This document shows positions 31,542-63,623 of a stretch of 64,000 bases of DNA, one piece after another. The position numbers and the translations under genes are program-made. The stretch lies in assembly GCF_003334315.1 (NCBI RefSeq), contig NZ_QOWR01000009.1; one strand, given 5' to 3'. The DNA comes from Escherichia coli (GTDB lineage Bacteria; Pseudomonadota; Gammaproteobacteria; Enterobacterales; Enterobacteriaceae). Position 1 is the stretch's first letter, and the number at the start of each line of letters is the position of its first letter. The notes below the pieces were generated by a model. That model worked only from the letters and a program-made list of their open reading frames with translations, made no database searches and was not told where the DNA came from.

Positions 31542-31559
31542 TGCTTCATCGATTGAGCA
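31542..31559. promoter_or_regulatory. Candidate LacI-type operator in the ribitol regulator/operon intergenic region
   Basis: TGCTTCATCGATTGAGCA: 14 of 18 positions self-complementary around a central ATCGAT. Confidence 0.35.
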
Positions 31560-31642
31560 GTTTGCTTCACACGGCAGCTAAATTCCCGTTCAGTGCGTGC
31601 AAGCAAACAGAGACTATAAATTCGCCCTGGTAAAAGGATTAT

Positions 31643-32395: not shown

Positions 32396-32405
32396 GGGCG
32401 CAATC

Positions 32406-34010: not shown

Positions 34011-34111
34011 TTAACCAGCCGCCTGACGCTGTTTTCAGGCAATCACTAATAACGACTCACTCCGGTAATATCCCGGAGTGCATTCATCTGCACCCTAAAA
34101 ACGAGGTTTAT

Positions 34112-35386: not shown

Positions 35387-35408
35387 AAAACGAAACGCAT
35401 CAGGCACT

Positions 35409-35434
35409 CATCCTCTCCCTCATGGGAGAGGATG
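35409..35434. terminator. Hairpin (11-bp stem) between convergent rbtT and fbaB, at the right edge of the island
   Basis: CATCCTCTCCC-tcat-GGGAGAGGATG. Confidence 0.5.
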
Positions 35435-35442
35435 ATTTCACA

Positions 35443-36495
35443 TCAGGCAATAGTGACTTTGTTATCGAGATAAACGTCCTGCACGGCGTTAATCAGTTTC
35501 ACGCCGTCAGCCATCGATTTCTTAAATGCTTTCCGCCCCAGAATCAGCCCCATTCCGCCTGCGCGTTTGTTGATAACCGCAGTACGCACTGCATCGCTGA
35601 GGTCAGTTTCACCGCCCGCAGCACCGCCGGAGTTTATCAACCCAGCCCGACCCATATAGCAGTTAGCTAACTGATAACGCACCAGATCAATCGGGTTTTC
35701 GCTGGTCAATTTGCTGTAAACACGATCGTCGGTGTAACCGTAATTAATTGCTTTATAGCCGCCGTTATTTTCCGCCATTTTTTGTTTGACGATATCTGCA
35801 CCGATGGTTGCCGCCAGATGGTTTGCCTGACCGGTCAGGTCGGCGGAAACATGGTAATCAACGCCATCTTTCTTAAAGGCGGAGTTACGCAAATAGGCCC
35901 ACAGCACTGTCACCATACCCAGCTCGTGCGCACGTTCAAAAGCCGCAGAAATTTCTTCAATCTGGCGACGTGACTCTTCCGAGCCAAAATAGATAGTCGC
36001 ACCAACCGCAACCGCGCCCATGTTGAACGCCTGCTCCACGCTGGCATACAGCGTTTGATCGTAGGTATTCGGGTAACTTAGCGTCTCGTTGTGATTAAGT
36101 TTGACGAGGAATGGAATGCGATGCGCATAACGCCGCGATACCGACGCCAGCACGCCGTAAGTTGACGCCACACAGTTACAGCCCGCTTCGATCGCCAGTT
36201 CAACAATGTTTTTCGGGTCAAAGTAGAGCGGGTTAGCAGCAAATGAAGCTCCGGCAGAGTGCTCAACGCCCTGGTCAACCGGCAGAATAGAAAGATATCC
36301 TGTGCCAGCCAGACGCCCGGTGTTGTACAACGTCTGCATATTACGTAACACCGCTGGCGGGCGATTATTGTCAATCATTACGCGGTCTACGTAGTCATGT
36401 CCGGGGAGATAAAGCTGGTCAGAAGGAATTGTCATACAACGGTGCTGTAAAAGGTTGTCGGCGTCTTTGCCAAGCAACTGCGCAATATCTGTCAT
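35443..36495 (-). CDS. fbaB: Class I fructose-bisphosphate aldolase (350 aa; ORF-track start 36567 is an extension)
   Basis: DeoC/FbaB-type class I aldolase; start [16 protein letters not shown]. Confidence 0.9.
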
Positions 36496-36751
36496 TACTA
36501 TGCTCCCGTAAATTCCGATTGGATATCGGCTATGGATTGTCCTGGCCCGCCTTTTGCGGGCAATCATAATCCTGGTCGTTACGGGCGAGTTTTTCCATCT
36601 TTTGGATGTTTTTTCAGCGTTTTCTGTTGGCTCGATTCATCAGAAAAAATGTTAGCGCGGTCAAGTTTTCACCGCAAAGGTATTTAAAAGGTATTATTAA
36701 GTGGTATTGTCATCGCGTACCTTACATTACCTGTCATGAAGGAATTAAAAG

Positions 36752-38029
36752 ATGAAAACAACAGCAAAGCTGTCGTTCATGATGTTTGTTGAATGGTTTA
36801 TCTGGGGCGCGTGGTTTGTGCCATTGTGGTTGTGGTTAAGTAAAAGCGGTTTTAGTGCCGGAGAAATTGGCTGGTCGTATGCCTGTACCGCCATTGCGGC
36901 GATCCTGTCGCCAATTCTGGTTGGCTCCATCACTGACCGCTTTTTCTCGGCGCAAAAAGTGCTGGCGGTATTGATGTTCGCAGGCGCGCTGCTGATGTAT
37001 TTCGCTGCGCAACAGACCACTTTTGCCGGGTTCTTTCCGTTACTGCTGGCTTACTCTCTAACCTATATGCCGACCATTGCGCTGACTAACAGCATCGCTT
37101 TTGCCAACGTGCCGGATGTGGAGCGTGATTTCCCGCGCATTCGTGTGATGGGCACTATCGGCTGGATTGTCTCCGGTCTGGCATGTGGTTTCTTGCCGCA
37201 AATACTGGGGTATGCCGATATCTCACCGACTAACATCCCGCTGCTGATTACCGCCGGAAGTTCTGCTCTGCTCGGTGTGTTTGCGTTTTTCCTGCCCGAC
37301 ACGCCACCAAAAAGCACCGGCAAAATGGATATTAAAGTCATGCTCGGCCTGGATGCGCTGATCCTGCTGCGCGATAAAAACTTCCTCGTCTTTTTCTTCT
37401 GTTCATTCCTGTTTGCGATGCCACTGGCGTTCTATTACATCTTTGCCAACGGTTATCTGACCGAAGTCGGCATGAAAAATGCCACCGGCTGGATGACGCT
37501 CGGCCAGTTCTCTGAAATATTCTTTATGCTGGCATTACCGTTTTTCACTAAACGCTTTGGTATCAAAAAGGTATTATTGCTTGGTCTGGTCACCGCTGCG
37601 ATCCGCTATGGCTTCTTTATTTACGGTAGTGCGGATGAATATTTCACCTACGCGTTACTGTTCCTCGGTATTTTGCTTCACGGCGTAAGTTACGATTTTT
37701 ACTACGTTACCGCTTACATCTATGTCGATAAAAAAGCCCCCGTGCATATGCGTACCGCCGCGCAGGGGCTGATCACGCTCTGCTGCCAGGGCTTCGGCAG
37801 TTTGCTCGGCTATCGTCTTGGCGGTGTGATGATGGAAAAGATGTTCGCTTATCAGGAACCGGTAAACGGACTGACTTTCAACTGGTCCGGGATGTGGACT
37901 TTTGGCGCGGTGATGATTGCCATTATCGCCGTGCTGTTCATGATTTTTTTCCGCGAATCCGACAACGAAATTACGGCTATCAAGGTCGATGATCGCGATA
38001 TTGCGTTGACACAAGGGGAAGTTAAATGA
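36752..38029 (+). CDS. yegT: Nucleoside:H+ symporter-family MFS transporter (425 aa)
   Basis: 12-TM MFS with NHS-family character; 4-nt overlap with yegU. Confidence 0.85.
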   Translation: MKTTAKLSFMMFVEWFIWGAWFVPLWLWLSKSGFSAGEIGWSYACTAIAAILSPILVGSITDRFFSAQKVLAVLMFAGALLMYFAAQQTTFAGFFPLLLAYSLTYMPTIALTNSIAFANVPDVERDFPRIRVMGTIGWIVSGLACGFLPQILGYADISPTNIPLLITAGSSALLGVFAFFLPDTPPKSTGKMDIKVMLGLDALILLRDKNFLVFFFCSFLFAMPLAFYYIFANGYLTEVGMKNATGWMTLGQFSEIFFMLALPFFTKRFGIKKVLLLGLVTAAIRYGFFIYGSADEYFTYALLFLGILLHGVSYDFYYVTAYIYVDKKAPVHMRTAAQGLITLCCQGFGSLLGYRLGGVMMEKMFAYQEPVNGLTFNWSGMWTFGAVMIAIIAVLFMIFFRESDNEITAIKVDDRDIALTQGEVK

Positions 38030-39030
38030 AAACAGAACGTATTCTCGGTGCTCTTTATGGGCAGGCGTTAGGGGATGCGATGGGGATGCCCTCCGAGCTT
38101 TGGCCACGCAGCCGCGTTAAAGCACACTTTGGCTGGATTGACCGTTTTCTTCCTGGACCAAAGGAGAATAACGCGGCCTGTTATTTTAACCGCGCCGAAT
38201 TCACCGACGATACCTCGATGGCGCTGTGTCTGGCGGATGCGTTACTGGAACGTGAAGGCAAGATCGATCCGAATCTGATTGGGCGTAATATTCTCGACTG
38301 GGCGCTGCGTTTCGACGCCTTTAACAAAAACGTACTTGGTCCGACCTCGAAGATTGCGCTTAACGCCATTCGCGACGGTAAACCCATTGCTGAACTGGAA
38401 AACAACGGCGTGACCAACGGCGCAGCGATGCGCGTCTCGCCATTAGGTTGTTTGCTTCCGGCGCACGATGTTGATTCCTTTATTGATGATGTGGCGCTGG
38501 CGTCCAGCCCGACCCATAAATCCGATCTGGCGATTGCAGGCGCGGTAGTCATCGCATGGGCGATTTCTCGTGCCATTGACGGAGAAAGCTGGTCAGCGAT
38601 TGTAGATTCACTGCCTTCAATTGCGCGACATGCACAGCAAAAACGCATCACTACCTTCAGCGCCTCACTGGCAGCACGTCTGGAGATTGCGCTGAAAATT
38701 GTGCGCAATGCCGACGGCACCGAATCCGCCAGCGAACAGCTTTACCAGGTCGTTGGCGCAGGTACCAGCACTATTGAGTCCGTTCCGTGCGCCATTGCGC
38801 TGGTTGAACTGGCACAAACCGACCCGAATCGCTGCGCCGTCCTGTGCGCTAACCTTGGCGGCGACACAGACACCATCGGCGCTATGGCGACGGCGATTTG
38901 CGGCGCGTTGCATGGCGTTAACGCTATCGATCCTGCATTAAAGGCGGAACTGGATGCGGTAAATCAGCTTGATTTCAACCGCTATGCCACAGCGCTGGCG
39001 AAATATCGTCAACAACGGGAGGCGGTATGA
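38026..39030 (+). CDS. yegU: ADP-ribosylglycohydrolase-family protein (334 aa)
   Basis: ADP-ribosylglycohydrolase fold motifs (GALYGQALGDAMGMP, GGDTDTIGAMA). Confidence 0.85.
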   Translation: MKTERILGALYGQALGDAMGMPSELWPRSRVKAHFGWIDRFLPGPKENNAACYFNRAEFTDDTSMALCLADALLEREGKIDPNLIGRNILDWALRFDAFNKNVLGPTSKIALNAIRDGKPIAELENNGVTNGAAMRVSPLGCLLPAHDVDSFIDDVALASSPTHKSDLAIAGAVVIAWAISRAIDGESWSAIVDSLPSIARHAQQKRITTFSASLAARLEIALKIVRNADGTESASEQLYQVVGAGTSTIESVPCAIALVELAQTDPNRCAVLCANLGGDTDTIGAMATAICGALHGVNAIDPALKAELDAVNQLDFNRYATALAKYRQQREAV

Positions 39031-39992
39031 GCGGCGCTCGATTACACACGCTGCTGCCTGAATTAACCTCGCGTCAGCCGGTGATGGTCGTCGGCGCGGC
39101 GGTCATTGATGTGATCGCCGACGCTTATGCCCTCCCCTGGCGTGGGTGCGATATCGAACTGAAGCAGCAGAGCGTTAACGTTGGCGGCTGCGCACTGAAT
39201 ATTGCCGTGGCGTTAAAGCGCCTCGGCATCGAAGCGGGTAATGCCTTGCCGCTCGGTCAGGGCGTGTGGGCGGAGATTATTCGCAACCGGATGGCGAAAG
39301 AGGGGTTAATCAGCCTGATCGATAACGCCGAAGGCGATAACGGCTGGTGTCTGGCGCTGGTTGAGCCGGATGGCGAACGCACTTTTATGTCATTCAGCGG
39401 TGTGGAAAATCAGTGGAATCGCCAGTGGCTGGCGCGATTAACCGTTGCGCCTGGCAGCCTGCTCTATTTTTCCGGTTATCAACTGGCCTCGCCCTGCGGC
39501 GAATTGTTAGTGGAATGGCTGGAAAAGCTGCAAGACGTGACGCCGTTTATCGATTTTGGCCCACGTATCGGCGATATCCCGGACGCATTACTGGCGCGGA
39601 TCATGGCCTGTCGACCTTTAGTATCACTCAATCGTCAAGAGGCTGAGATTGCCGCCGAACGTTTTGCTTTATCCGCAGAGATAACAACACTTGGCAAGCA
39701 ATGGCAGGAGAAATCTGCCGCGCCGTTGATCGTTCGTCTCGATAAAGAGGGTGCATGGTATTTCAGCAACGACGCTTCTGGCTGCATTCCGGCATTTCCA
39801 ACGCAAGTTGTAGACACCATTGGGGCGGGCGACAGTCATGCAGGTGGCGTACTTGCCGGGCTGGCCTCTGGTCTGCCACTGGCGGATGCCGTATTACTGG
39901 GCAATGCAGTGGCGTCGTGGGTTGTCGGGCATCGGGGCGGTGATTGTGCGCCAACGCGCGAGGAACTACTCCTCGCACACAAAAACGTATAG
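39027..39992 (+). CDS. yegV: PfkB-family carbohydrate/nucleoside kinase (321 aa)
   Basis: PfkB motifs (VDTIGAGDSHAGG). Confidence 0.85.
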   Translation: MSGARLHTLLPELTSRQPVMVVGAAVIDVIADAYALPWRGCDIELKQQSVNVGGCALNIAVALKRLGIEAGNALPLGQGVWAEIIRNRMAKEGLISLIDNAEGDNGWCLALVEPDGERTFMSFSGVENQWNRQWLARLTVAPGSLLYFSGYQLASPCGELLVEWLEKLQDVTPFIDFGPRIGDIPDALLARIMACRPLVSLNRQEAEIAAERFALSAEITTLGKQWQEKSAAPLIVRLDKEGAWYFSNDASGCIPAFPTQVVDTIGAGDSHAGGVLAGLASGLPLADAVLLGNAVASWVVGHRGGDCAPTREELLLAHKNV

Positions 39993-40712
39993 ATCGCTGC
40001 GACAGTGGCTAATGCTGTACTCAATAGGCCGTTGCTGTTGGTCAAGCGCCACTTGCTTGATCACCAGCACCGGTATTTTGCTATCTAACTGAATATGTGA
40101 CTGAAACTCGGCATCCGGCATCCGGGCGCTAACGCGGGAACGTGTACGTTGTGGGTAAATGTGCTGGCTGCGGAAATAGTCATAAAGTGAAATCCCGATG
40201 GCATCAACATCATGAATTAAATGCGCCGGAACCCACGATTCCTCAATCGATACCGCTTCTTCATCGACATAGCGAATACGCTTAAGCAAAAAGACATCAC
40301 TTCCTGCTTCGACCGCCAGCTGCTGCGCGACTTCTTCGGGACATTTCACGACACGCTTGTTAACCCATAGCGTATCGGGCTTTTTCCCGCGCAATACCAC
40401 CTGCTGAGAAAAACCTCGCGCTTCTTTCAACGAGTATTCGAAGATGTTGTTGATCTGCGTGCCGTAACCGCGCGAACGCGTCACCACACCCTCTTCTTCC
40501 AGCGCCTGCATCGCCTTGCGCACCGTAATGCGCGAAACGCCGGTTAACTGACTTAAATCACGCTCACCGGGCAAAATATTGCCATGCTCCAGCACCCCGC
40601 TGCGCACGGCATTTTTTACCGTTTCGGCAAACTTAATATAAAGCGGCGTGTTATCCGCAGCTAAAATACGCTCGTTCAGTTGGGCAATCAGCTGGGTATG
40701 CGCTTGTTCCAT
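39966..40712 (-). CDS. yegW: GntR/HutC-family transcriptional regulator (248 aa)
   Basis: GntR HTH (LPGERDLSQLTGVSRITVRKAM) and UTRA-like C-terminal domain; 3' end overlaps the yegV 3' end by 27 bp. Confidence 0.85.
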   Translation of the reverse strand: MEQAHTQLIAQLNERILAADNTPLYIKFAETVKNAVRSGVLEHGNILPGERDLSQLTGVSRITVRKAMQALEEEGVVTRSRGYGTQINNIFEYSLKEARGFSQQVVLRGKKPDTLWVNKRVVKCPEEVAQQLAVEAGSDVFLLKRIRYVDEEAVSIEESWVPAHLIHDVDAIGISLYDYFRSQHIYPQRTRSRVSARMPDAEFQSHIQLDSKIPVLVIKQVALDQQQRPIEYSISHCRSDLYVFVCEE

Positions 40713-40763
40713 TTGTCTTTTTCCTGCCAGGGAGTCTGGTGGGAGTATATCACTGCTTCTTAT

Positions 40764-41582
40764 TTAAGGCGTTTCTTTAATCCCATCAACGAATCCCTGC
40801 AACTCCTCCACCGTGCCATTAAACACATTAAAATCCACCGGACCATTGATGCCATCTACCTGTCCACGGTCGGAATGCTGCCAGAAGCGCCAGGCCATTC
40901 CGTCATTGTCCGGACGACGTTGATAATAGTGAGCCACCCACCACGGATATTCATTAAAATAGCCCGCCAGATTCGTGTGATAAAAAACGGCTCCTGAGTA
41001 AATAATCGGCTTTTTTCCCGTGCGTTTTTCTACCATTTTTAGCCACTGACTTACCCGCTTGCGTAATTCTTTTGCCGATAATTTTCCCCGTTCTTCTACG
41101 TCCAGCACGGCAGGGAAATCGCCTTGTGAGAAATCCACCGTTTGCAGAAATAATCGTGCCTGAACCGGCGCTGCTACCGACGGGGAGAAATAATGATACG
41201 CCCCGCGCAGCAGGCCATTTTCGCGGCTTAGTTGCCAGTTACGCGAAAAATAGGGGTCCACCAGCTTTTCGCCTTCCGTCGCCTTAATAAAAGCAAACTG
41301 TAAGCGGATACCGTTGTCGCGCATTTTTGCCACCCGCTGCCAGTCGATCCGCTCCTGCCAGCGAGAAACATCTATTCCGTGAATGGTGTAACTGGCAGGA
41401 ATGCGAATAGCGAAAGATTTAACCGGGCGATAACCGTAGAAATGGATGTAGTCTTTAATCTGAATTGCTGTCGAATAGAAAAAATTCACCGTCTGACGCG
41501 GATAAATTGCAACGATAGAAATTAGCCCAAGAGCGCATAATAGAGAGGTGAGTTTTTTTCGACTGGTAATTCTTAGCTGCAT
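40764..41582 (-). CDS. yegX: Glycoside hydrolase family 25 (lysozyme-like) protein with signal peptide (272 aa)
   Basis: GH25 signature (GIDVSRWQ) after an N-terminal signal/TM segment. Confidence 0.8.
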   Translation of the reverse strand: MQLRITSRKKLTSLLCALGLISIVAIYPRQTVNFFYSTAIQIKDYIHFYGYRPVKSFAIRIPASYTIHGIDVSRWQERIDWQRVAKMRDNGIRLQFAFIKATEGEKLVDPYFSRNWQLSRENGLLRGAYHYFSPSVAAPVQARLFLQTVDFSQGDFPAVLDVEERGKLSAKELRKRVSQWLKMVEKRTGKKPIIYSGAVFYHTNLAGYFNEYPWWVAHYYQRRPDNDGMAWRFWQHSDRGQVDGINGPVDFNVFNGTVEELQGFVDGIKETP

Positions 41583-50380: not shown

Positions 50381-50416
50381 AAAGCCGAAATCATTTATAT
50401 AAATGATTTCGGCTTT
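50381..50416 (-). terminator. Rho-independent terminator after yehE (perfect 18-bp inverted repeat)
   Basis: AAAGCCGAAATCATTTAT / ATAAATGATTTCGGCTTT, with a T-run on the minus strand. Confidence 0.7.
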
Positions 50417-52230: not shown

Positions 52231-54264
52231 ATGACTCAAGTCGCGAAGAAAATTCTGGTGACGTGCGCACTGCCGTACGCTAACGGCTCAATCCACCTCG
52301 GCCATATGCTGGAGCACATCCAGGCTGATGTCTGGGTCCGTTACCAGCGAATGCGCGGCCACGAGGTCAACTTCATCTGCGCCGACGATGCCCACGGTAC
52401 ACCGATCATGCTGAAAGCTCAGCAGCTTGGTATCACCCCGGAGCAGATGATTGGCGAAATGAGTCAGGAGCATCAGACTGATTTCGCAGGCTTTAACATC
52501 AGCTATGACAACTATCACTCGACGCACAGCGAAGAGAACCGCCAGTTGTCAGAACTTATCTACTCTCGCCTGAAAGAGAACGGTTTTATTAAAAACCGCA
52601 CCATCTCTCAGCTGTACGATCCGGAAAAAGGCATGTTCCTGCCGGACCGTTTTGTGAAAGGCACCTGCCCGAAATGTAAATCCCCGGATCAATACGGCGA
52701 TAACTGCGAAGTCTGCGGCGCGACCTACAGCCCGACTGAATTGATCGAGCCGAAATCGGTGGTTTCTGGCGCTACGCCGGTAATGCGTGATTCTGAACAC
52801 TTCTTCTTTGATCTGCCCTCTTTCAGCGAAATGTTGCAGGCATGGACCCGCAGCGGTGCGTTGCAGGAGCAGGTGGCAAATAAAATGCAGGAGTGGTTTG
52901 AATCCGGCCTGCAACAGTGGGATATCTCCCGCGACGCGCCATACTTTGGTTTTGAAATTCCGAACGCGCCGGGCAAATATTTCTACGTCTGGCTGGACGC
53001 ACCGATTGGCTACATGGGTTCTTTCAAGAATCTGTGCGACAAGCGCGGCGACAGCGTAAGCTTCGATGAATACTGGAAGAAAGACTCCACCGCCGAACTG
53101 TACCACTTCATCGGTAAAGATATCGTTTACTTCCACAGCCTGTTCTGGCCTGCCATGCTGGAAGGCAGCAACTTCCGCAAGCCGACCAACCTGTTTGTTC
53201 ATGGCTATGTGACGGTGAACGGCGCGAAGATGTCCAAGTCTCGCGGCACCTTTATTAAAGCCAGCACCTGGCTGAATCATTTTGACGCTGACAGCCTGCG
53301 TTACTACTACACTGCGAAACTCTCTTCGCGCATTGATGATATCGATCTCAACCTGGAGGATTTCGTTCAGCGCGTGAATGCCGATATCGTTAACAAAGTG
53401 GTTAACCTGGCCTCCCGTAACGCGGGCTTTATCAACAAACGTTTTGACGGCGTGCTGGCAAACGAACTGGCTGACCCGCAGTTGTACAAAACCTTCACTG
53501 ATGCCGCTGAAGTGATTGGTGAAGCGTGGGAAAGCCGTGAATTTGGTAAAGCTGTGCGCGAAATCATGGCGCTGGCTGATCTGGCTAACCGCTATGTCGA
53601 TGAACAGGCTCCGTGGGTAGTCGCAAAACAGGAAGGTCGCGATGCTGACCTGCAGGCGATTTGCTCAATGGGCATCAACCTGTTCCGCGTGCTGATGACT
53701 TACCTGAAGCCGGTACTGCCGAAACTGACCGAGCGTGCAGAAGCCTTCCTCAATACGGAACTGACCTGGGATGGTATCCAGCAACCGCTGCTGGGCCACA
53801 AAGTGAATCCGTTCAAGGCGCTGTATAACCGCATCGATATGAAACAGGTTGAAGCTCTGGTGGAAGCCTCTAAAGAAGAAGTGAAAGCAGCTGCCGCGCC
53901 AGTTACTGGCCCACTGGCAGATGATCCGATTCAGGAAACCATCACCTTTGACGACTTCGCCAAAGTTGACCTGCGCGTAGCGCTGATCGAAAACGCAGAG
54001 TTTGTTGAAGGTTCTGACAAACTGCTGCGCCTGACACTGGATCTCGGCGGTGAAAAACGCAATGTCTTCTCCGGTATTCGTTCTGCCTACCCGGATCCGC
54101 AGGCACTGATTGGTCGTCACACCATTATGGTGGCTAACCTGGCACCACGTAAAATGCGCTTTGGAATCTCCGAAGGCATGGTGATGGCTGCCGGTCCAGG
54201 CGGGAAAGATATCTTCCTGCTAAGCCCGGATGCTGGTGCTAAACCGGGTCATCAGGTGAAATAA
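52231..54264 (+). CDS. metG: Methionyl-tRNA synthetase (677 aa)
   Basis: HIGH motif ([16 protein letters not shown]), KMSKS motif, Zn knuckle and C-terminal tRNA-binding domain. Confidence 0.95.
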
Positions 54265-54275
54265 TCCCCCTTCAA

Positions 54276-54303
54276 GGCGCTGCATCGACAGCGCCTTTTC
54301 TTT
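54276..54303 (+). terminator. Rho-independent terminator of metG
   Basis: GGCGCTG-catcga-CAGCGCC followed by TTTTCTTT. Confidence 0.75.
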
Positions 54304-54404
54304 ATAAATTCCTAAAGTTGTTTTCTTGCGATTTTGTCTCTCTCTAACCCGCATAAATACTGGTAGCATCTGCATTCAACTGGATAAAATTACAGGGATG
54401 CAGA

Positions 54405-57400
54405 ATGAGACACTTTATCTATCAGGACGAAAAATCACATAAATTCTGGGCGGTGGAGCAACAGGGAAACGAGTTGCATATCAGTTGGGGAAAAGTTGGC
54501 ACCAAAGGGCAAAGTCAGATAAAAAGTTTTTCAGATGCTGCGGCAGCGGAAAAAGCGGAACTTAAGCTGATTGCGGAGAAGGTGAAGAAGGGGTATGTGG
54601 AGCAAGCGAAGGATAATTCTTTGCAACCTTCCCAAACGGTAACGGGCTCTCTCAAGGTAGCGGACTTATCCACCATTATTCAGGAACAACCCTCTTTCGT
54701 AGCAGAAACCCGTGCGCCTGACAAAAATACAGATGCTGTTTTACCGTGGCTGGCGAAAGATATTGCTGTCGTTTTTCCGCCCGAAGTTGTACACACCACG
54801 TTAAGTCATCGCCGCTTTCCCGGAGTTCCTGTTCAGCAAGCAGACAAATTGACCCAATTACGTCGCTTAGCCTGTAGTGTGTCGCAACGGGATAATAAAA
54901 CAGCCACATTTGACTTCAGCGCCTGTTCTTTAGAATGGCAAAACACCGTCGCCCAGGCGATCAGTCAGATCGACGGCCTGAAAACAACACAGTTACCATC
55001 ACCAGTAATGGCTGTACTCACGGCACTTGAAATGAAATGCACAAGATATAAAGTGCGTGAGGATGTTATGGATCAGATCGTCCAGGAAGGCGGTCTGGAA
55101 TATGCTACTGATGTAATAATACACCTTCAACAGATTGATATTGAATGGGATTATGCGAATAATGTCATTATTATTCTGCCGTCTGGCATTGCACCTAGCT
55201 ACTTGGAGCAATATTCCAGATTTGAATTACGCCTACGTAAACATTTATCACTGACGGAAGAGTCTCTCTGGCAAAAATGTGCACAAAAACTTATTGCCGC
55301 AATTCCACATATTCCAGAATGGCGGCAACCATTAATTGCTTTGTTATTACCCGAAAAACCAGAAATTGCACATGAAATTGCCCAGCGTCTACTGGGGCAA
55401 AAAAAATTACCCTCGCTTGAGTGGTTAAAAATAGTGGCGACTGATGAGCACATTCTTGCCTCATTAGAAAAATATCACGAACCATATGCCATTTTTGATG
55501 ATTACTATTGTGGTGCGATATGGTCAGCCACCGTATTACAGGAGCAAGGTGTTGCAGCCCTGCCCCGATTTGCTCCCTATGCCGCAAGTGACTACTGCGC
55601 CGATGTGTTGCGTCATATCAATCATCCGTTCGCATTGACACTGCTTATACGTGTAGCCGGGCAAACTAAACGCTGTCACGATCGGATGACGAAAGCCATT
55701 GCTGCGTTCCCACATGCAGCAATGGCGGCACTGACGGAACTTCTTGGGCAAAAAGAAGAGAACAGTTGGCGCATTATGCTAATGACAATGCTTATCTCAC
55801 AACCAGCACTGGCAGAACAGGTCATTCCCTGGCTCTCGACACCCGCAGTTGCCGTACTGAAATCATGCCAGCAACAACTGACACAGCCCTCAAACCATGC
55901 CAGCGCCGATCTACTGCCAGCCGTAGTAGTCTCCCCTCCCTGGCTTTCGAAAAAGAAAAAATCGCCGATTCCGGTGCTGGATTTAGCGCCATTAGGCATT
56001 GAGCCAATCTGTTATCTGACAGAAGAAATCAGTAATCAACTTTTGGCGAAATATATCTGGTATTCAAAACACATCACGGTTAGCCATGAAGAAAGTACTA
56101 CCAACCTGTTGGCAAGGATGGGTTTTCAACGACGGATCGCTGGTACATATATTAAAGCTCCCGAAGCGGTAGTTGAGGCATGGCTAAATGAAGATTATTC
56201 AACCTTACTAAGTGAATTTAAGGTGTTTCATTCACCTACCGGGCATTATTGGCAGTTGGGGATTTTGACAACATTGCCGCTGGAGAAAGCAGTAAAAGCA
56301 TGGAATGCCCTTACCCTATCTCCACATACCGATACCGAATACTCCATGTTACATTTTGGACTCAAAGGGTTACCTGGGTTAGTAAACTCACTTGCACGCT
56401 ATCCACAAGAAGCCTTGCCCATCACGAATTACTTCGCAGCGAGTGAGCTGGCTCCTGCCGTCGCCCGTGCCTTCAACAAACTGAAAACGCTACGCGAAAA
56501 CGCCCGTAGCTGGCTGTTGAAATACCCGGAACATGCCCTTACCGGCCTGCTGCCTGCGGCGCTCGGCAAAGCCGGTGAAGCACAGGATAACGCCCGCGCT
56601 GCCTTGCGTATGCTTACCGAAAACGGTCATCAGCCATTACTGCAAGAAATCGCCCGACGTTATAACCAGCCGGAAGTAACCGATGCGGTGAACGCTCTGC
56701 TTGCGCTCGATCCCTTAGATAATCACCCGACAAAAATCCCCACTCTTCCGGCCTTTTATCAGCCATCGCTCTGGACGCGCCCGGTATTAAAAGCAAATGC
56801 CCAATCACTGCCAGATAGCGCCCTCCTCCACCTCGGTGAAATGCTCCGCTTCCCTCAGGAAGAGGCTCTGTATCCGGGATTATTGCAGGTGAAAGACGTC
56901 TGTTCCGCCGACTCACTGGCGGGATTTGCCTGGGATCTGTTTACCGCCTGGCAGACCGCTGGCGCGCCGTCGAAAGAGAGTTGGGCGTTCACTGCGTTAG
57001 GCGTTCTCGGTAACGATGACACCGCCCGCAAACTGACGCCATTAATACGCGCCTGGCCTGGTGAATCCCAGCATAAACGCGCCACCGTTGGGTTGGATAT
57101 TCTCGCTGCTATCGGTAGTGATATCGCCCTTATGCAGCTTAACGGCATCGCCCAGAAACTGAAATTCAAAGCATTACAGGAGCGGGCAAAAGAAAAAATT
57201 GCCGACATTGCCGAGAGCCGCGAACTCACGGTGGCGGAGCTTGAAGATCGGTTAGCACCGGATCTCGGTCTGGATGATAACGGTTCGCTGCTGCTGGATT
57301 TTGGCCCACGGCAGTTCACCGTCAGCTTTGATGAAACCTTAAAACCGTTTGTGCGTGATGTTTCCGGCAGCCGCCTGAAGGACCTGCCCAAACCGAACAA

Positions 57401-58199
57401 AAGCGATGATGAAACGCGGGCGAACGATGCGGTTAACCGCTACAAATTGCTGAAAAAAGATGCGCGTACCATCGCCGCCCAGCAGGTAGCAAGGCTGGAA
57501 TCCGCCATGTGCCTGCGCCGCCGCTGGTCGCTGGAAAACTTCCAGCTCTTCCTGGTTGAGCATCCGCTGGTTCGTCACTTAACCCGCCGTCTGATTTGGG
57601 GCGTTTATAGCGCCGAAAACCAGCTACTGGCTTGCTTTCGCGTAGCAGAAGATAACAGCTCCAGCACCGCTGACGATGATCTTTTCACCCTGCCGGAAGG
57701 CGATATCTCTATCGGCACTCCTCACGTTCTGGAAATATCACCAACGGATGCTGCCGCCTTTGGTCAGCTTTTTGCCGACTACGAACTGCTACCACCGTTC
57801 CGCCAGCTCGACCGTAACAGCTACGCCCTGACAGAAGCCGAGCGCAATGCCAGTGAACTGACCCGCTGGGCAGGCAGAAAATGCCCGAGTGGTCGGGTCA
57901 TGGGGCTGGCGAATAAAGGCTGGATAAAGGGCGAACCACAGGATGGAGGCTGGATCGGATGGATGATCAAACCTTTGGGTCGCTGGTCGTTAATCATGGA
58001 AATCGATGAAGGCTTTGCGGTAGGCATGTCGCCAGCCGAACTCAGCGCTGAGCAGCTCTTAAGCAAGCTGTGGCTATGGGAAGGCAAAGCAGAAAGATAT
58101 GGCTGGGGGAGTAATTCAACACAGGAAGCGCAGTTCTCCGTAATCGATGCCATCACCGCCAGCGAGCTAATTAACGATATTGAAGCCCTGTTTGAATAA
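54405..58199 (+). CDS. yehH: Large WGR-domain protein with YehI-like C-terminal region (1264 aa), intact here
   Basis: N-terminal WGR domain (FIYQDEKSHKFWAVEQQGNELHISWGKVGTKGQ); long colinear similarity to YehI (FDLRLRKHLSL, AWDLFTAWQ.AGAP, FGPRQFTV.FDE, FADYE..PPFRQL). Confidence 0.85.
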   Translation: MRHFIYQDEKSHKFWAVEQQGNELHISWGKVGTKGQSQIKSFSDAAAAEKAELKLIAEKVKKGYVEQAKDNSLQPSQTVTGSLKVADLSTIIQEQPSFVAETRAPDKNTDAVLPWLAKDIAVVFPPEVVHTTLSHRRFPGVPVQQADKLTQLRRLACSVSQRDNKTATFDFSACSLEWQNTVAQAISQIDGLKTTQLPSPVMAVLTALEMKCTRYKVREDVMDQIVQEGGLEYATDVIIHLQQIDIEWDYANNVIIILPSGIAPSYLEQYSRFELRLRKHLSLTEESLWQKCAQKLIAAIPHIPEWRQPLIALLLPEKPEIAHEIAQRLLGQKKLPSLEWLKIVATDEHILASLEKYHEPYAIFDDYYCGAIWSATVLQEQGVAALPRFAPYAASDYCADVLRHINHPFALTLLIRVAGQTKRCHDRMTKAIAAFPHAAMAALTELLGQKEENSWRIMLMTMLISQPALAEQVIPWLSTPAVAVLKSCQQQLTQPSNHASADLLPAVVVSPPWLSKKKKSPIPVLDLAPLGIEPICYLTEEISNQLLAKYIWYSKHITVSHEESTTNLLARMGFQRRIAGTYIKAPEAVVEAWLNEDYSTLLSEFKVFHSPTGHYWQLGILTTLPLEKAVKAWNALTLSPHTDTEYSMLHFGLKGLPGLVNSLARYPQEALPITNYFAASELAPAVARAFNKLKTLRENARSWLLKYPEHALTGLLPAALGKAGEAQDNARAALRMLTENGHQPLLQEIARRYNQPEVTDAVNALLALDPLDNHPTKIPTLPAFYQPSLWTRPVLKANAQSLPDSALLHLGEMLRFPQEEALYPGLLQVKDVCSADSLAGFAWDLFTAWQTAGAPSKESWAFTALGVLGNDDTARKLTPLIRAWPGESQHKRATVGLDILAAIGSDIALMQLNGIAQKLKFKALQERAKEKIADIAESRELTVAELEDRLAPDLGLDDNGSLLLDFGPRQFTVSFDETLKPFVRDVSGSRLKDLPKPNKSDDETRANDAVNRYKLLKKDARTIAAQQVARLESAMCLRRRWSLENFQLFLVEHPLVRHLTRRLIWGVYSAENQLLACFRVAEDNSSSTADDDLFTLPEGDISIGTPHVLEISPTDAAAFGQLFADYELLPPFRQLDRNSYALTEAERNASELTRWAGRKCPSGRVMGLANKGWIKGEPQDGGWIGWMIKPLGRWSLIMEIDEGFAVGMSPAELSAEQLLSKLWLWEGKAERYGWGSNSTQEAQFSVIDAITASELINDIEALFE

Positions 58200-58208
58200 G
58201 GAAAGAGC

Positions 58209-61200
58209 ATGGACAAGGAATTACCGTGGCTGGCGGATAACGCCCAACTGGAACTGAAATATAAAAAAGGCAAAACGCCGCTCAGTCATCGTCGCTGGCC
58301 GGGCGAACCAGTGTCCGTTATCACTGGAAGTCTCATCCAGACATTGGGTGATGAATTGCTACAAAAAGCTGAGAAGAAAAAAAACATTGTCTGGCGTTAT
58401 GAGAATTTTTCACTGGAGTGGCAGTCCGCCATCACGCAGGCCATCAACTTGATCGGCGAACACAAACCCTCAATCCCGGACCGGACAATGGCGGCGCTAG
58501 CCTGTATCGCGCAAAATGACAGCCAACAGTTGCTCGACGAAATCGTCCAACAAGAGGGGCTGGAATATGCGACTGAGGTGGTGATTGCACGCCAGTTTAT
58601 TGCGCGGTGTTATGAGAGTGATCCTCTGGTAGTGACATTGCAGTATCAGGACGAGGATTATGGCTATGGTTATCGCTCAGAAACCTATAACGAATTCGAT
58701 CTCCGACTGCGTAAGCATCTCTCTCTGGCAGAGGAAAGCTGCTGGCAGCGTTGCGCCGACAAACTCATTGCCGCACTACCAGGAATAACCAAAGTTCGCC
58801 GCCCTTTTATTGCGCTGATCCTCCCGGAAAAACCAGAAATAGCCAATGAGTTGGTAGGCCTTGAATGCCCGCGAACTCATTTTCATTCTAAGGAGTGGTT
58901 AAAAGTTGTTGCTAATGACCCCACAGCGGTGAGAAAACTCGAACACTACTGGAGCCAGGATATATTTAGCGATCGAGAAGCCAGCTACATGTCGCATGAA
59001 AACCACTTCGGCTACGCGGCCTGCGCCGCCCTTTTGCGCGAACAAGGACTGGCAGCCATTCCGCGCCTCGCGATGTATGCCCATAAAGAAGATTGCGGCA
59101 GTCTGCTGGTACAAATTAACCATCCGCAAGTCATCCGCACCTTGCTACTGGTGGCTGATAAAAACAAACCCAGCCTGCAACGTGTAGCTAAATACCATAA
59201 AAACTTCCCCCATGCGACGCTCGCCGCACTGGCAGAACTGCTGGCGTTAACAGAACCACCAGCCCGCCCTGGTTATCCAATCATCGAAGACAAAAAGCTG
59301 CCTGCACAGCAAAAAGCACGCGATGAATACTGGCGTACGCTGTTACAAACGCTGATGGCATCGCAGCCACAACTGGCAGCAGAAGTGATGCCGTGGTTAA
59401 GTACTCAACCCCAGTCAGTGCTGAAGAGTTATTTATCGGCACCGCCCAAACCGGTTATTGATGGCACCGATAACAGCAATCTGCCAGAAATCCTCGTTTC
59501 ACCACCGTGGCGTAGTAAGAAAAAAATGACAGCTCCACGTCTTGATTTGGCACCGCTCGAATTAACTCCGCAAGTTTACTGGCAACCAGGCGAACAAGAG
59601 AGGCTTGCCGCCACTGAGCCTGCCCGTTATTTCAGCACGGAATCTCTTGCGCAACGCATGGAACAAAAAAGTGGACGAGTTGTATTACAGGAACTGGGTT
59701 TTGGGGATGATGTATGGCTGTTTCTGAATTATATACTCCCCGGAAAACTGGATGCTGCACGCAATTCACTCTTTGTTCAGTGGCATTACTACCAGGGGCG
59801 GGTTGAAGAGATCCTGAATGGCTGGAACTCCCCGGAAGCACAATTAGCAGAACAGGCGCTCCGCAGCGGTCACATAGAAGCGTTAATTAACATATGGGAA
59901 AATGACAACTACTCACATTATCGTCCGGAAAAGAGTGTCTGGAACCTGTATTTATTGGCACAGTTGCCGCGTGAGATGGCTTTGACCTTCTGGCTGCGTA
60001 TCAATGAGAAAAAGCATCTGTTCGCGGGTGAGGACTATTTTCTCAGTATCCTCGGATTGGATGCGCTACCAGGTCTGCTGTTGGCTTTTTCACATCGTCC
60101 AAAAGAAACATTTCCGTTAATTTTAAATTTTGGCGCAACAGAACTGGCGCTGCCTGTTGCCCACGTCTGGCGACGTTTCGCGGCGCAGCGTGATCTGGCT
60201 CGCCAGTGGATTTTACAATGGCCGGAACATACGGCTAGTGCACTTATCCCTCTTGTCTTTACCAAACCCAGCGATAATAGCGAAGCCGCATTACTTGCCC
60301 TGCGTTTACTGTACGAACAGGGACATGGCGAATTGCTACAAACCGTGGCAAACCGCTGGCAGCGTACAGATGTATGGTCTGCCCTGGAGCAGTTGCTTAA
60401 ACAGGGTCCAATGGACATTTACCCGGCACGCATTCCAAAAGCCCCTGATTTCTGGCATCCGCAAATGTGGTCCAGGCCGCGCCTTATCACTAATAATCAA
60501 ACTGTTACCAATGACGCTCTGGAAATTATCGGCGAAATGCTGCGCTTTACCCAGGGGGGACGTTTTTATAGCGGGCTGGAACAACTGAAAACGTTCTGCC
60601 AGCCACAAACGCTGACAGCTTTTGCCTGGGATCTCTTCACTGCGTGGCAACAAGCTGGTGCCCCCGCAAAAGACAACTGGGCATTTCTGGCGTTAAGTCT
60701 CTTTGGTGACGAAAGCACGGCACGGGATCTGACGACACAGATCCTCGCCTGGCCACAAGAAGGCAAATCTGCCCGTGCTGTCAGCGGCCTGAACATCCTT
60801 ACCCTGATGAATAATGATATGGCGCTGATACAGCTGCATCATATATCGCAACGGGCTAAATCCCGCCCCTTACGTGATAACGCGGCGGAATTTCTTCAGG
60901 TGGTCGCAGAAAATCGCGGGCTAAGCCAGGAAGAGCTAGCGGACAGATTAGTCCCAACCCTGGGCCTTGATGATCCGCAGGCGTTGAGTTTTGATTTTGG
61001 TCCCCGGCAGTTTACCGTTCGCTTCGATGAAAATCTCAACCCGGTTATCTTTGATCAGCAAAACGTTCGCCAGAAAAGCGTTCCCCGTTTGCGCGCCGAT
61101 GACGATCAACTGAAAGCGCCCGAGGCACTGGCCCGACTAAAAGGGCTAAAAAAAGATGCTACTCAGGTGAGCAAAAACCTGCTCCCGCGTCTTGAAACGG

Positions 61201-61841
61201 CCCTACGTACCACCCGACGCTGGTCGCTGGCAGATTTTCATTCTCTGTTTGTTAATCATCCCTTTACCCGTCTGGTTACCCAGCGATTAATATGGGGGGT
61301 TTATCCGGCAAATGAACCGCGTTGTTTACTCAAAGCCTTTCGTGTGGCCGCAGAGGGGGAGTTCTGCAATGCGCAAGATGAGCCAATTGACCTGCCTGCG
61401 GACGCTCTGATTGGCATTGCCCACCCGTTAGAAATGACAGCAGAAATGCGCAGTGAATTTGCACAGCTTTTTGCCGATTACGAAATTATGCCGCCTTTTC
61501 GCCAGTTGTCGCGCCGCACGGTGCTGCTCACACCTGACGAGTCAACCAGTAACAGCCTGACTCGCTGGGAAGGTAAATCCGCTACCGTTGGGCAACTTAT
61601 GGGAATGCGATACAAAGGCTGGGAGTCAGGCTATGAGGACGCATTTGTCTATAACCTGGGTGAGTACCGGCTGGTCCTTAAGTTTTCACCCGGTTTTAAC
61701 CACTACAATGTTGATAGCAAAGCGCTAATGAGCTTCCGTTCTCTTCGAGTGTACCGTGACAATAAATCCGTCACTTTTGCCGAACTTGATGTGTTTGATT
61801 TGAGTGAGGCGTTAAGCGCACCTGACGTCATTTTCCATTAA
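58209..61841 (+). CDS. yehI: Large YehH-paralogous protein lacking the WGR domain (1210 aa)
   Basis: Paralog of yehH (shared blocks listed there). Confidence 0.88.
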   Translation: MDKELPWLADNAQLELKYKKGKTPLSHRRWPGEPVSVITGSLIQTLGDELLQKAEKKKNIVWRYENFSLEWQSAITQAINLIGEHKPSIPDRTMAALACIAQNDSQQLLDEIVQQEGLEYATEVVIARQFIARCYESDPLVVTLQYQDEDYGYGYRSETYNEFDLRLRKHLSLAEESCWQRCADKLIAALPGITKVRRPFIALILPEKPEIANELVGLECPRTHFHSKEWLKVVANDPTAVRKLEHYWSQDIFSDREASYMSHENHFGYAACAALLREQGLAAIPRLAMYAHKEDCGSLLVQINHPQVIRTLLLVADKNKPSLQRVAKYHKNFPHATLAALAELLALTEPPARPGYPIIEDKKLPAQQKARDEYWRTLLQTLMASQPQLAAEVMPWLSTQPQSVLKSYLSAPPKPVIDGTDNSNLPEILVSPPWRSKKKMTAPRLDLAPLELTPQVYWQPGEQERLAATEPARYFSTESLAQRMEQKSGRVVLQELGFGDDVWLFLNYILPGKLDAARNSLFVQWHYYQGRVEEILNGWNSPEAQLAEQALRSGHIEALINIWENDNYSHYRPEKSVWNLYLLAQLPREMALTFWLRINEKKHLFAGEDYFLSILGLDALPGLLLAFSHRPKETFPLILNFGATELALPVAHVWRRFAAQRDLARQWILQWPEHTASALIPLVFTKPSDNSEAALLALRLLYEQGHGELLQTVANRWQRTDVWSALEQLLKQGPMDIYPARIPKAPDFWHPQMWSRPRLITNNQTVTNDALEIIGEMLRFTQGGRFYSGLEQLKTFCQPQTLTAFAWDLFTAWQQAGAPAKDNWAFLALSLFGDESTARDLTTQILAWPQEGKSARAVSGLNILTLMNNDMALIQLHHISQRAKSRPLRDNAAEFLQVVAENRGLSQEELADRLVPTLGLDDPQALSFDFGPRQFTVRFDENLNPVIFDQQNVRQKSVPRLRADDDQLKAPEALARLKGLKKDATQVSKNLLPRLETALRTTRRWSLADFHSLFVNHPFTRLVTQRLIWGVYPANEPRCLLKAFRVAAEGEFCNAQDEPIDLPADALIGIAHPLEMTAEMRSEFAQLFADYEIMPPFRQLSRRTVLLTPDESTSNSLTRWEGKSATVGQLMGMRYKGWESGYEDAFVYNLGEYRLVLKFSPGFNHYNVDSKALMSFRSLRVYRDNKSVTFAELDVFDLSEALSAPDVIFH

Positions 61842-61901
61842 AACACAGCGGGCAGTGATGCAACTGCCCGTTATCAACACGACTTACCAGCGGGGAAAGC
61901 G

Positions 61902-62219
61902 ATGATCGTGCAAAAAGAGCTGGTTGCTATTTACGATTATGAGGTCCCTGTACCTGAAGATCCGTTTTCCTTCAGACTTGAGATCCATAAATGCTCTGAA
62001 TTATTTACAGGTTCCGTCTATCGACTGGAGCGATTCCGGCTACGTCCAACATTTCATCAACGTGATCGAGAAGATGCTGACCCGCTAATAAATGATGCGT
62101 TGATTTATATAAGAGATGAGTGTATTGATGAGCGGAAATTACGAGGTGAATCACCTGAAACTGTAATAGCAATTTTTAATCGTGAACTACAGAATATATT
62201 CAACCAAGAAATAGAATAA
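61902..62219 (+). CDS. yehK: Small protein of unknown function (105 aa)
   Basis: Conserved position between yehI and yehL. Confidence 0.75.
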   Translation: MIVQKELVAIYDYEVPVPEDPFSFRLEIHKCSELFTGSVYRLERFRLRPTFHQRDREDADPLINDALIYIRDECIDERKLRGESPETVIAIFNRELQNIFNQEIE

Positions 62220-62525
62220 TATACTCTAAATAATTCAAATTGGTCCGATCCGGCGCACCGTCCCAATGGCCTGGATTATAAATCTCATTATCTTAATTGC
62301 AACGGGGTCCAGCCGTGGTTATAATTCGTTCGTTGGAACACGATGTTGCACAGGCTGTGGTGTTAGGCCTGAAAATAGTAAATAAAAGAACCTGCCTCAC
62401 CAGCAGGTTTTTTTATTTACTGTGATCTGCTTTCCAGATATTTTTCGCTCAAACAACTAATGCGCCAAACATTTATTGCGCGTAAAATATCGTTTATTTC
62501 ATTAATACATTTCAGGGATGAATAT

Positions 62526-63613
62526 ATGTCACCGCAGAATAATCATCTGCAGCGTCCGCCTGCTGCTGTGTTATACGCCGATGAACTGGCAAAATTAAAA
62601 CAAAATGATAACGCACCTTGCCCGCCCGGTTGGCAGTTAAGTTTGCCTGCGGCCCGTGCTTTTATCCTTGGCGACGAAGCGCAAAATATCAGCCGTAAAG
62701 TGGTGATTAGCCCCTCCGCTGTCGAACGTATGTTAGTCACTCTTGCTACCGGCCGCGGTTTGATGTTGGTGGGGGAACCGGGTACCGCAAAATCTCTTCT
62801 TTCTGAATTACTGGCAACCGCTATTAGCGGCGATGCCGGGTTAACCATCCAGGGCGGGGCATCTACCACCGAAGATCAAATCAAGTATGGCTGGAACTAC
62901 GCCCTGCTTATCAATCATGGTCCGTCAACGGAAGCGCTGGTCCCTGCCCCGCTTTATCAGGGAATGCGCGACGGCAAAATCGTCCGTTTCGAAGAGATAA
63001 CGCGTACACCGCTGGAAGTGCAGGACTGTCTGTTAGGTATGCTTTCTGACAGGGTGATGACGGTGCCGGAACTCACTGGTGAAGCCAGTCAGCTCTATGC
63101 GCGAGAAGGCTTTAATATTATTGCCACTGCCAATACCCGCGATCGCGGCGTCAATGAAATGAGTGCTGCGCTAAAGCGTCGCTTCGATTTTGAAACGGTT
63201 TTTCCGATTATGGATTTCGCCCAGGAGTTGGAACTGGTCGCCAGTGCTTCGGCGCGTTTGCTGGCCCATAGCGGTATTCCGCATAAAGTGCCTGACGCGG
63301 TACTGGAATTACTGGTCCGCACCTTCCGCGATCTGCGTGCCAACGGCGAAAAGAAAACGTCAATGGATACACTGACAGCGATTATGTCCACCGCTGAAGC
63401 CGTGAACGTGCCCATGCTGTGGGCGTCCGCGCCTGGTTTTTAGCGAATCGCGCGGGGGAGCCTGCCGACCTGGTGGAATGTATTGCCGGAACCATCGTCA
63501 AAGATAACGAAGAAGATCGCGCGCGTCTGCGCCGTTACTTCGAACAGCGTGTCGCCACACATAAAGAAGCTCACTGGCAGGCTTATTATCAAGCCCGCCA
63601 CCGCCTGCCGTGA
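62526..63613 (+). pseudogene. yehL: MoxR-like AAA+ ATPase YehL, apparently frameshifted near 63407-63443 (or an indel error in this sequence)
   Basis: Walker A GEPGTAKS and AAA core in frame 1 ending at 63443; the C-terminal continuation is in another frame to 63613. The intact product would be about 362 aa. Confidence 0.7.
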
Positions 63614-63623
63614 GGAAAGATGC

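What the first reader, a model, noticed from the sequence alone, without database searches (positions are those of the whole stretch)
63407..63443. Frame break in the MoxR-like ATPase gene yehL
The AAA+ frame ends at TAG 63441-63443, but the conserved C-terminal continuation (VRAWFLANRAGEPADL...) is open in another frame from 63407 to 63613. A single 1-bp difference restores one ~362-aa product. This is either a genuine inactivating mutation or an indel error; a run of five T residues lies at 63436-63440.
Basis: seen in the sequence. Interest (0 to 1): 0.4.

Follow-up and report, generated by a model that had tools for sequence, protein, structure and literature searches.

The report
One-base deletion breaks E. 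coli yehL
A single missing G has cut short yehL, a poorly understood ATPase gene, in one E. coli strain whose neighbouring gene yehM is already broken, so this is ordinary decay of a dispensable operon.

Summary
The frame break is real. yehL (ATG 62526) stops at TAG 63441-63443 after 305 codons. The native C-terminus (A296-P362) continues in the overlapping frame to TGA 63611-63613.

The cause is loss of one G from a GG pair (intact AACGTGGCCCAT, window AACGTGCCCAT; surviving G at 63410). It is not the T5 run, which lies at 63437-63441 and is unchanged. Re-inserting the G gives the normal 362-aa YehL.

- **Rarity:** none of about 5,220 complete RefSeq E. coli genomes that carry the region matches the deleted sequence exactly.
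- **Assembly quality:** it is the only indel in 64 kb against the nearest complete genomes.
- **Independent support:** a reassembly of raw reads (Logan, SRR3824135) is identical to the window over 11,475 nt, deletion included.
- **Second hit:** that strain also has a nonsense mutation in yehM (Q461*), 1,004 nt past the window end. A whole lineage shares it, and its other members keep yehL intact. One is identical over 15.5 kb except for this G.
- **Damage:** the break falls inside lid helix 289-307 of a NorQ/CbbQ-like MoxR AAA+ ATPase and removes four conserved helices.

Verdict: a genuine, recent, private pseudogenising deletion, about 0.85. Sequencing error is about 0.1. Interest is low.

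The parts
62526..63443 (+). Truncated yehL reading frame: 305 codons plus TAG. Residues 1-295 are native and residues 296-305 (PMLWASAPGF) are out of frame.
   Evidence: The start matches the RefSeq annotation of intact yehL. The AAA_5 domain covers residues 79-220.
63410..63410 (+). Site of the lesion: the single surviving G of what is a GG pair in every intact yehL (GTG GCC becomes GTG CC). This is a 1-bp deletion at the codon 295/296 boundary.
   Evidence: Alignment A1. BLAST comparisons report a gap at 63409/63410.
63411..63440 (+). Ten out-of-frame codons (CCC ATG CTG TGG GCG TCC GCG CCT GGT TTT) read after the deletion.
63441..63443 (+). Premature stop codon TAG. It is created by reading the native ...TGG TTT TTA GCG... 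one base out of register.
63437..63441 (+). T5 run. It is unchanged relative to intact genes and is not the site of this mutation.
   Evidence: T5-to-T4 alleles are seen in other, noisy assemblies.
63410..63613 (+). Stranded native 3' coding part of yehL (A296-P362 plus TGA) in the overlapping frame. That frame is open from 63398. The only start in it is GTG 63419, with no Shine-Dalgarno-like sequence upstream.
   Evidence: Conservation of this part in distant homologues is shown. It forms helices 289-307 (part), 313-324, 331-341 and 349-360 in the model.
63624..64000 (+). 5' part of yehM (DUF5682), the next gene of the operon, starting 11 nt after the native yehL stop. In this strain yehM carries CAG-to-TAG (Q461*) 1,004 nt beyond the window end.
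   Evidence: annotation. One search gives L004 12479 T versus C..

Best explanation
This is a genuine, recent, strain-private 1-bp deletion: one G lost from a GG pair at the codon 295/296 boundary. It turns yehL into a pseudogene.

**Effect on the protein.** Translation runs 10 codons out of frame and stops at TAG 63441-63443. The 305-aa product keeps the AAA+ alpha/beta core. It loses the rest of lid helix 289-307 and the three helices after it (313-324, 331-341, 349-360). These are conserved in homologues down to about 35% identity, so the ATPase is very probably inactive. That last step is inferred.

**Why it was tolerated.** The strain belongs to a lineage in which yehM, the next gene of the same operon (yehL-yehM-yehP-yehQ: MoxR-type ATPase, DUF5682, VWA, SWIM), was already knocked out by a nonsense mutation (Q461*). 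The yehL deletion is therefore a second hit in an operon that was already dead, and was probably neutral. The operon is also H-NS-silenced in K-12. This is stepwise operon decay.
For: **Shown**
1. The deletion and its exact site. Re-inserting the G gives the standard 362-aa YehL.
2. No complete RefSeq E. coli genome matches the deletion-bearing sequence exactly. The best match is 99.6% for the 261-mer, among 5,218 matching genomes, and 98.4% for the 60-mer, among 4,842. All listed best hits are one base longer.
3. The assembly is clean.
   - Window 40001-64000 against strain 027_SK3 shows 37 substitutions and only this indel.
   - Window 97-48846 against USDA-ARS-USMARC-51408 shows 135 substitutions and no indels.
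4. The exact 305-aa product exists in the 15-billion-protein collection on 2 Logan contigs. Logan contig SRR3824135_123, a reassembly from raw reads, is 100% identical to window 52526-64000, deletion included.
5. That contig has yehM CAG-to-TAG at codon 461.
   - The allele is absent from complete RefSeq genomes.
   - It is present on at least 24 contigs from several samples.
   - In three of these (GCA_025412885.1, ERR972103, GCA_004172665.1) yehL is intact.
6. GCA_004172665.1 is identical to the SRR3824135 contig over 15,522 nt except for this single G.
7. A sister strain (ERR972103) carries a separate 1-bp deletion in the upstream WGR+DUF4132 gene.
8. The lost part is conserved. Full-length homologues at 34-53% identity align to residues 356-361, and D331 and Y338 are at least 90% conserved.
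9. The AF2 model (pLDDT 91.1) places the break inside helix 289-307.

**From the literature**
- yehM and yehL are deleted in Shigella sonnei lineages 2 and 3 (PMC12795559).
Against: - Read pile-ups could not be inspected.
- The window's assembly may have been built from the same reads as SRR3824135. In that case the Logan contig checks the assembler but not the sequencing chemistry.
- The sample behind the second Logan contig that carries the allele could not be identified.
- A difference of exactly one indel and no substitutions from the sister genome is also what a lone consensus error would look like.
- Loss of function of the truncated protein is inferred from conservation and a predicted structure. 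It was not measured.
Confidence: 0.85

Rival explanations
1. Sequencing or assembly indel error: the strain really has GTGGCCC and an intact yehL, and the consensus dropped a G.
For: The sister genome GCA_004172665.1 differs by this one base only over 15.5 kb. The allele is seen on only 2 contigs of the large collection. Other yehL frameshift alleles, such as T5-to-T4, occur in clearly error-ridden assemblies.
Against: - The site is a GG pair, not a long homopolymer.
- There are no other indels in 64 kb against the nearest complete genomes.
- All other genes on the SRR3824135 contig are full length apart from the lineage-wide yehM stop.
- The same base is missing in an independent k-mer-based reassembly of the raw reads and on a second contig.
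- NCBI's own annotation normally gives no protein for frameshifted genes (my knowledge of PGAP practice, not tested here). The count of 2 contigs would then be a lower bound.
Confidence: 0.1
2. The two-frame arrangement is functional. Either full-length protein is restored by ribosomal slippage, or the two pieces (1-305 and a GTG-initiated 64-aa peptide) work as a split protein.
For: From the sequence alone: in the mutant frame the last sense codon and the stop read U UUU UAG. A -1 slip of tRNA-Phe on the U5 run (UUU 63438-40 to UUU 63437-39) would re-enter the native frame at Leu306.
Against: - The arrangement is absent from all the roughly 5,220 complete genomes that carry the region and from the nearest sister strains. 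It is therefore not a conserved recoding signal.
- There is no canonical X XXY YYZ heptamer.
- No Shine-Dalgarno-like sequence precedes GTG 63419.
- Any slipped product would still carry 10 wrong residues, two of them prolines, inside lid helix 289-307.
- The partner gene yehM is null anyway.
Confidence: 0.03
3. Loss of yehL was positively selected (adaptive inactivation of a costly or toxic MoxR-VWA module) rather than neutral decay.
For: Three independent disabling hits lie in one roughly 12-kb gene cluster within one lineage: yehM Q461*, the yehL frameshift, and the upstream DUF4132 gene frameshift in ERR972103. Several other independent yehL truncation alleles exist. The genes are deleted in S. 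sonnei lineages.
Against: - Once yehM is null, further hits are expected to be neutral.
- The operon is H-NS-silenced in K-12, so its cost is likely small.
- More than 5,200 complete genomes keep yehL, which argues for weak purifying selection overall.
- No phenotype data exist.
Confidence: 0.1

Closest known systems
Intact E. coli YehL (362 aa; WP_001300974.1 and WP_001350535.1), first gene of yehLMPQ
   Same: Residues 1-295 are identical to WP_001300974.1. The genomic context is the same (yehI-yehK-yehL-yehM), and so is the DNA apart from one G.
   Different: The window allele lacks residues 296-362, which are replaced by PMLWASAPGF. The lid domain is incomplete.
NorQ and CbbQ, MoxR-class AAA+ ATPases that act with VWA partners (NorD, CbbO)
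   Same: These are the best structural matches to the intact YehL model: NorQ 9qh9_C at E = 1.1e-12 and TM 0.81 on the target, and CbbQ 6l1q and 5c3c. YehL has an AAA_5 domain. A VWA protein (YehP; VWA_CoxE and VWA_2) is encoded in the same operon.
   Different: Sequence identity is only 15-20%. YehL has an extra N-terminal region (about 60 residues) and two extra C-terminal helices (331-360). Its operon also encodes DUF5682 and SWIM proteins. No substrate or function is known for YehL.
Frameshift pseudogenes in bacterial accessory operons (stepwise operon decay, as in Shigella)
   Same: There is a single-base indel, intact orthologues in close relatives, a second disabling mutation in the adjacent gene of the same operon, and whole-gene deletion of yehL and yehM in S. 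sonnei lineages.
   Different: Nothing essential differs. This is one more private allele.
Other truncated yehL alleles in public data (P0018, P0020, P0023 and others)
   Same: All give 305-aa products ending at the same TAG, because any 1-bp deletion shortly upstream runs into TTT TAG.
   Different: They have different mutation sites: a G lost further downstream (AHAVASAPGF), another single-base loss (AHAVGAAPGF), or T5-to-T4 (VRAWF*). The T-run allele occurs mainly on contigs whose neighbouring genes are also shredded, so it is likely sequencing error.

Membership tests
MoxR-class AAA+ ATPase (Pfam AAA_5; NorQ/CbbQ-like) | Walker A P-loop GxxGxGK[ST] | tested here: met
   GEPGTAKS at residues 83-90. 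G83, P85, G86 and K89 are invariant in 18 homologues.
MoxR-class AAA+ ATPase (Pfam AAA_5; NorQ/CbbQ-like) | Walker B acidic pair after a hydrophobic strand | tested here: met
   IVRFEE at residues 151-156, on strand 152-156. E156 is invariant and E157 is at least 90% conserved.
MoxR-class AAA+ ATPase (Pfam AAA_5; NorQ/CbbQ-like) | Significant match to the AAA_5 profile | tested here: met
   PF07728, E = 2.6e-34, residues 79-220, model positions 2-139 of 139.
MoxR-class AAA+ ATPase (Pfam AAA_5; NorQ/CbbQ-like) | Fold closest to solved MoxR ATPases | tested here: met
   The Foldseek top hits are NorQ (9qh9, 9qh7, 9qh8, 9qhd) and CbbQ (6l1q, 5c3c), at probability 1.00 and TM on the target of about 0.8. 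This applies to the intact sequence.
MoxR-class AAA+ ATPase (Pfam AAA_5; NorQ/CbbQ-like) | VWA-domain partner encoded alongside | tested here: met
   yehP (378 aa; VWA_CoxE and VWA_2) lies two genes downstream on the same strand in L004, outside the window.
MoxR-class AAA+ ATPase (Pfam AAA_5; NorQ/CbbQ-like) | Complete C-terminal helical lid domain | tested here: not met
   The window allele ends at residue 305, with native sequence only to 295. Helix 289-307 is broken and helices 313-324, 331-341 and 349-360 are missing. The gene is of this family, but the product encoded here is incomplete.
Frameshift pseudogene | Intact orthologue in close relatives, with one indel restoring the frame | tested here: met
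Frameshift pseudogene | Lesion present in the organism, not only in one consensus | tested here: inconclusive
   It is reproduced in the Logan reassembly of SRR3824135 and on a second Logan contig. Read-level data are not available here.
Frameshift pseudogene | Lost segment is functionally constrained | tested here: met
   It is conserved end to end in homologues at 34-53% identity. D331 and Y338 are at least 90% conserved.
Frameshift pseudogene | Loss of activity of the product | not testable with these tools
   This needs an ATPase or complementation assay.
Programmed ribosomal frameshift (recoding) | Two-frame arrangement conserved among orthologues | tested here: not met
   No exact match to the deletion-bearing sequence in any complete genome, among 5,218 that match the 261-mer and 4,842 that match the 60-mer. 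Sister strains are in one frame.
Programmed ribosomal frameshift (recoding) | Canonical slippery heptamer X XXY YYZ in the overlap | tested here: not met
   The overlap 63398-63443 was read directly. It holds only U UUU UAG, which is not a canonical heptamer.
Homopolymer sequencing error | Indel lies in a homopolymer run and is accompanied by other indels nearby | tested here: not met
   The site is a GG pair, and there are no other indels in 64 kb.

The most novel reading that the evidence does not exclude
A little near-full-length YehL may still be made in the mutant. The out-of-frame reading ends at U UUU UAG. At that slow stop codon, tRNA-Phe could slip -1 on the U5 run and re-enter the native frame at Leu306. 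The product would be 362 aa with only residues 296-305 altered, which would make this a leaky rather than a null allele.
Probability: 0.03. Interest if true: 0.3.

Novelty: already known. Interest (0 to 1): 0.1.

Why it matters
It matters little beyond annotation. In this genome yehL should be annotated as a frameshifted pseudogene, not as two ORFs, and the lesion should be placed at 63410, not in the T run.

There is a modest wider point. The yehH-yehQ cluster encodes DUF4132 proteins and a MoxR ATPase-DUF5682-VWA-SWIM module of unknown function. In one E. coli lineage it shows stepwise decay: yehM Q461* came first, then separate frameshifts arose in yehL and in the upstream DUF4132 gene in different sublineages. 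This agrees with the cluster being dispensable and H-NS-silenced. A natural series of single and double mutants also exists for anyone who wants to study its function.

Tried and rejected
- **T5 run as the mutation site.** Rejected. The run is identical in intact genes.
- **Same two-ORF arrangement in other complete genomes.**
  - No exact match to the deletion-bearing 261-mer or 60-mer was found.
  - Two hits whose match was one base shorter (H18, H22) have an intact 1089-nt yehL, so their indel is intergenic.
- **PADLOC defence-system models for YehL.** No match.
- **NCBIfam.** Only far sub-threshold matches: GvpN at 32.9 bits against a cut-off of 266.8, and MadB at 30.1 against 475. These are uninformative beyond the AAA+ class.
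- **PDB sequence search.** It gave only AAA+ core matches (midasin, 2r44, McrB) that do not reach the C-terminus. A predicted structure and fold search were used instead.
- **Literature on yehLMPQ function.** There is no functional study. The only mentions are H-NS silencing and deletion in S. sonnei.
- **Search for papers naming SRR3824135, ERR972103 or the two GCA accessions.** Nothing found.
- **First cluster look-up.** It failed for lack of capacity and was repeated successfully.
- **Sample behind the second Logan contig with the allele.** It could not be displayed, because the tool merges near-identical places.

Full report
**1. Observation**

The window's last 2 kb holds yehK, yehL and the start of yehM. 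The gene order matches every annotated E. coli genome examined.

- From the annotated yehL start (ATG 62526) the frame runs 305 codons to TAG 63441-63443.
- The sequence that encodes the normal C-terminus continues in the overlapping frame to TGA 63611-63613.
- That frame is open from 63398, not 63407.
- The T5 run is at 63437-63441, not 63436-63440.

**2. Nature of the lesion**

Alignment with K-12 MG1655 and strain A27 shows 161 of 162 columns identical. The one gap is a lost G: AACGTGGCCCAT has become AACGTGCCCAT, with the surviving G at 63410. The T5 run is the same in intact genes and is not involved.

Putting the G back yields a 362-aa protein. It is identical to the YehL of strain A27, WP_001300974.1. 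That exact sequence is found on at least 1000 contigs in the large protein collection.

**3. How rare it is**

- Of 5,426 complete RefSeq E. coli genomes, 5,218 have the region.
- None matches a 261-nt query across the deletion at 100%. The best is 99.6%, and every listed best hit is one base longer.
- A 60-nt query centred on the deletion gives no match at 99% or above among 4,842 genomes.
- Two genomes whose match was one base shorter (H18, H22) have a full 1089-nt yehL.

**4. Error or mutation**

The window is otherwise free of indels against its nearest complete relatives.
- Positions 40001-64000 against strain 027_SK3 show 37 substitutions and this single gap.
- Positions 97-48846 against USDA-ARS-USMARC-51408 show 135 substitutions and no gaps.

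The exact 305-aa product is on record on two Logan contigs. Logan contigs are assemblies made directly from public read sets. One of them, SRR3824135_123, is 100% identical to window 52526-64000 over 11,475 nt, including the missing G.

A T5-to-T4 yehL allele does occur in public data. It sits on contigs where yehI and yehM are also broken into many pieces, which is the signature of noisy reads. The SRR3824135 contig is clean.

These points make a consensus error unlikely, although I could not see reads.

**5. Context that explains it**

On the same SRR3824135 contig, yehM carries CAG-to-TAG at codon 461 of 759. This lies 1,004 nt beyond the window end.

- No complete RefSeq genome has this stop.
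- The 460-aa fragment is on at least 24 contigs from several samples, so it marks a lineage.
- In the three other lineage members shown (GCA_025412885.1, ERR972103, GCA_004172665.1) yehL is intact.
- GCA_004172665.1 is identical to the SRR3824135 contig over 15,522 nt except for the one G.
- ERR972103 has its own 1-bp deletion in the upstream WGR+DUF4132 gene.

The order of events is therefore yehM nonsense first, then independent second hits in neighbouring genes. This is the classic picture of decay once an operon has lost function.

**6. What is lost**

- Pfam finds only AAA_5, at residues 79-220.
- A search of 1.84 billion representative proteins finds full-length homologues at 34-53% identity that align to residues 356-361.
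- In an 18-sequence alignment, S288 is invariant just before the break. D331 and Y338, both at least 90% conserved, lie in the lost part.
- An AlphaFold2 model (pLDDT 91.1, pTM 0.88) gives lid helices 231-248, 257-272, 289-307 and 313-324, plus C-terminal helices 331-341 and 349-360.
- The frameshift after V295 cuts helix 289-307, adds ten wrong residues including two prolines, and removes the rest.
- The best structural neighbours are NorQ and CbbQ, MoxR AAA+ ATPases that work with VWA partners. yehP, in the same operon, encodes a VWA protein.

Loss of ATPase function is inferred, not shown.

**7. Rivals**

- **Sequencing error (about 0.1).** It is not excluded without reads.
- **Functional recoding or a split protein (about 0.03).** The arrangement is not conserved, there is no canonical slippery heptamer, and there is no ribosome-binding site before GTG 63419. 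A -1 slip on U UUU UAG could in principle re-enter the native frame.
- **Adaptive loss (about 0.1, and compatible with the main explanation).** It cannot be told apart from neutral decay with these data.

**8. Known biology and novelty**

No functional study of yehLMPQ was found. yehL and yehM are derepressed only in hns/stpA mutants of K-12 (PMC3686432). They are deleted in S. sonnei lineages 2 and 3 (PMC12795559). PADLOC has no model that matches YehL.

A private frameshift in a dispensable, silenced operon is an ordinary finding, so interest is low. The practical result is an annotation: yehL is a frameshifted pseudogene, with the lesion at 63410.

Noticed in passing
window 1-96 (junction at 96/97): The window begins with the last 96 nt of an IS1 copy (...GTAAGTTGGAGTCATTACC; recognised as IS1 from memory of its terminal sequence, and multi-copy in E. 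coli genomes). From 97 it continues into the interior of dgcE (yegE), so the diguanylate cyclase gene dgcE appears to be interrupted by IS1 in this strain.
   Followed up: partly
L004 12479-12481 (1,004 nt beyond the window end, inside yehM): Nonsense mutation CAG-to-TAG (Q461*) in yehM. It is absent from all complete RefSeq E. coli genomes but shared by a lineage of at least 24 contigs. It predates the yehL deletion.
   Followed up: yes
L007 (ERR972103), about 4481; corresponds to the WGR+DUF4132 gene at window 54405-58199: A sister strain of the same yehM-null lineage has an independent 1-bp deletion that splits the 1264-aa WGR+DUF4132 gene into 274 + 933 aa. In the window this gene is intact.
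   Followed up: partly
window about 25,400-36,500: A D-arabinitol/ribitol (dal/rbt) catabolic island lies between yegS and fbaB. Only 315 of 5,426 complete E. coli genomes cover at least 80% of window 20001-40000.
   Followed up: no
window about 40,100-41,100 (yegV/yegW/yegX): Substitution density against strain USDA-ARS-USMARC-51408 jumps from about 1 per 5 kb (97-40000) to 49-79 per 5 kb after 40 kb. Against strain 027_SK3, 22 of 37 substitutions cluster in 40,143-41,031. This looks like a recombination mosaic boundary.
   Followed up: no
window 50381-50416: A perfect 36-nt palindrome (AAAAAGCCGAAATCATTTATATAAATGATTTCGGCTTT) lies in the yehD-yehE intergenic region. It looks like a bidirectional intrinsic terminator.
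   Followed up: no
proteins P0017, P0023, P0028, P0029; loci L012-L017: yehL alleles ending ...VRAWF* (T5 to T4) recur in public read-set assemblies. They occur on contigs where neighbouring genes are also fragmented, so the T5 run is a hotspot for sequencing error in noisy data rather than a documented natural hotspot.
   Followed up: partly
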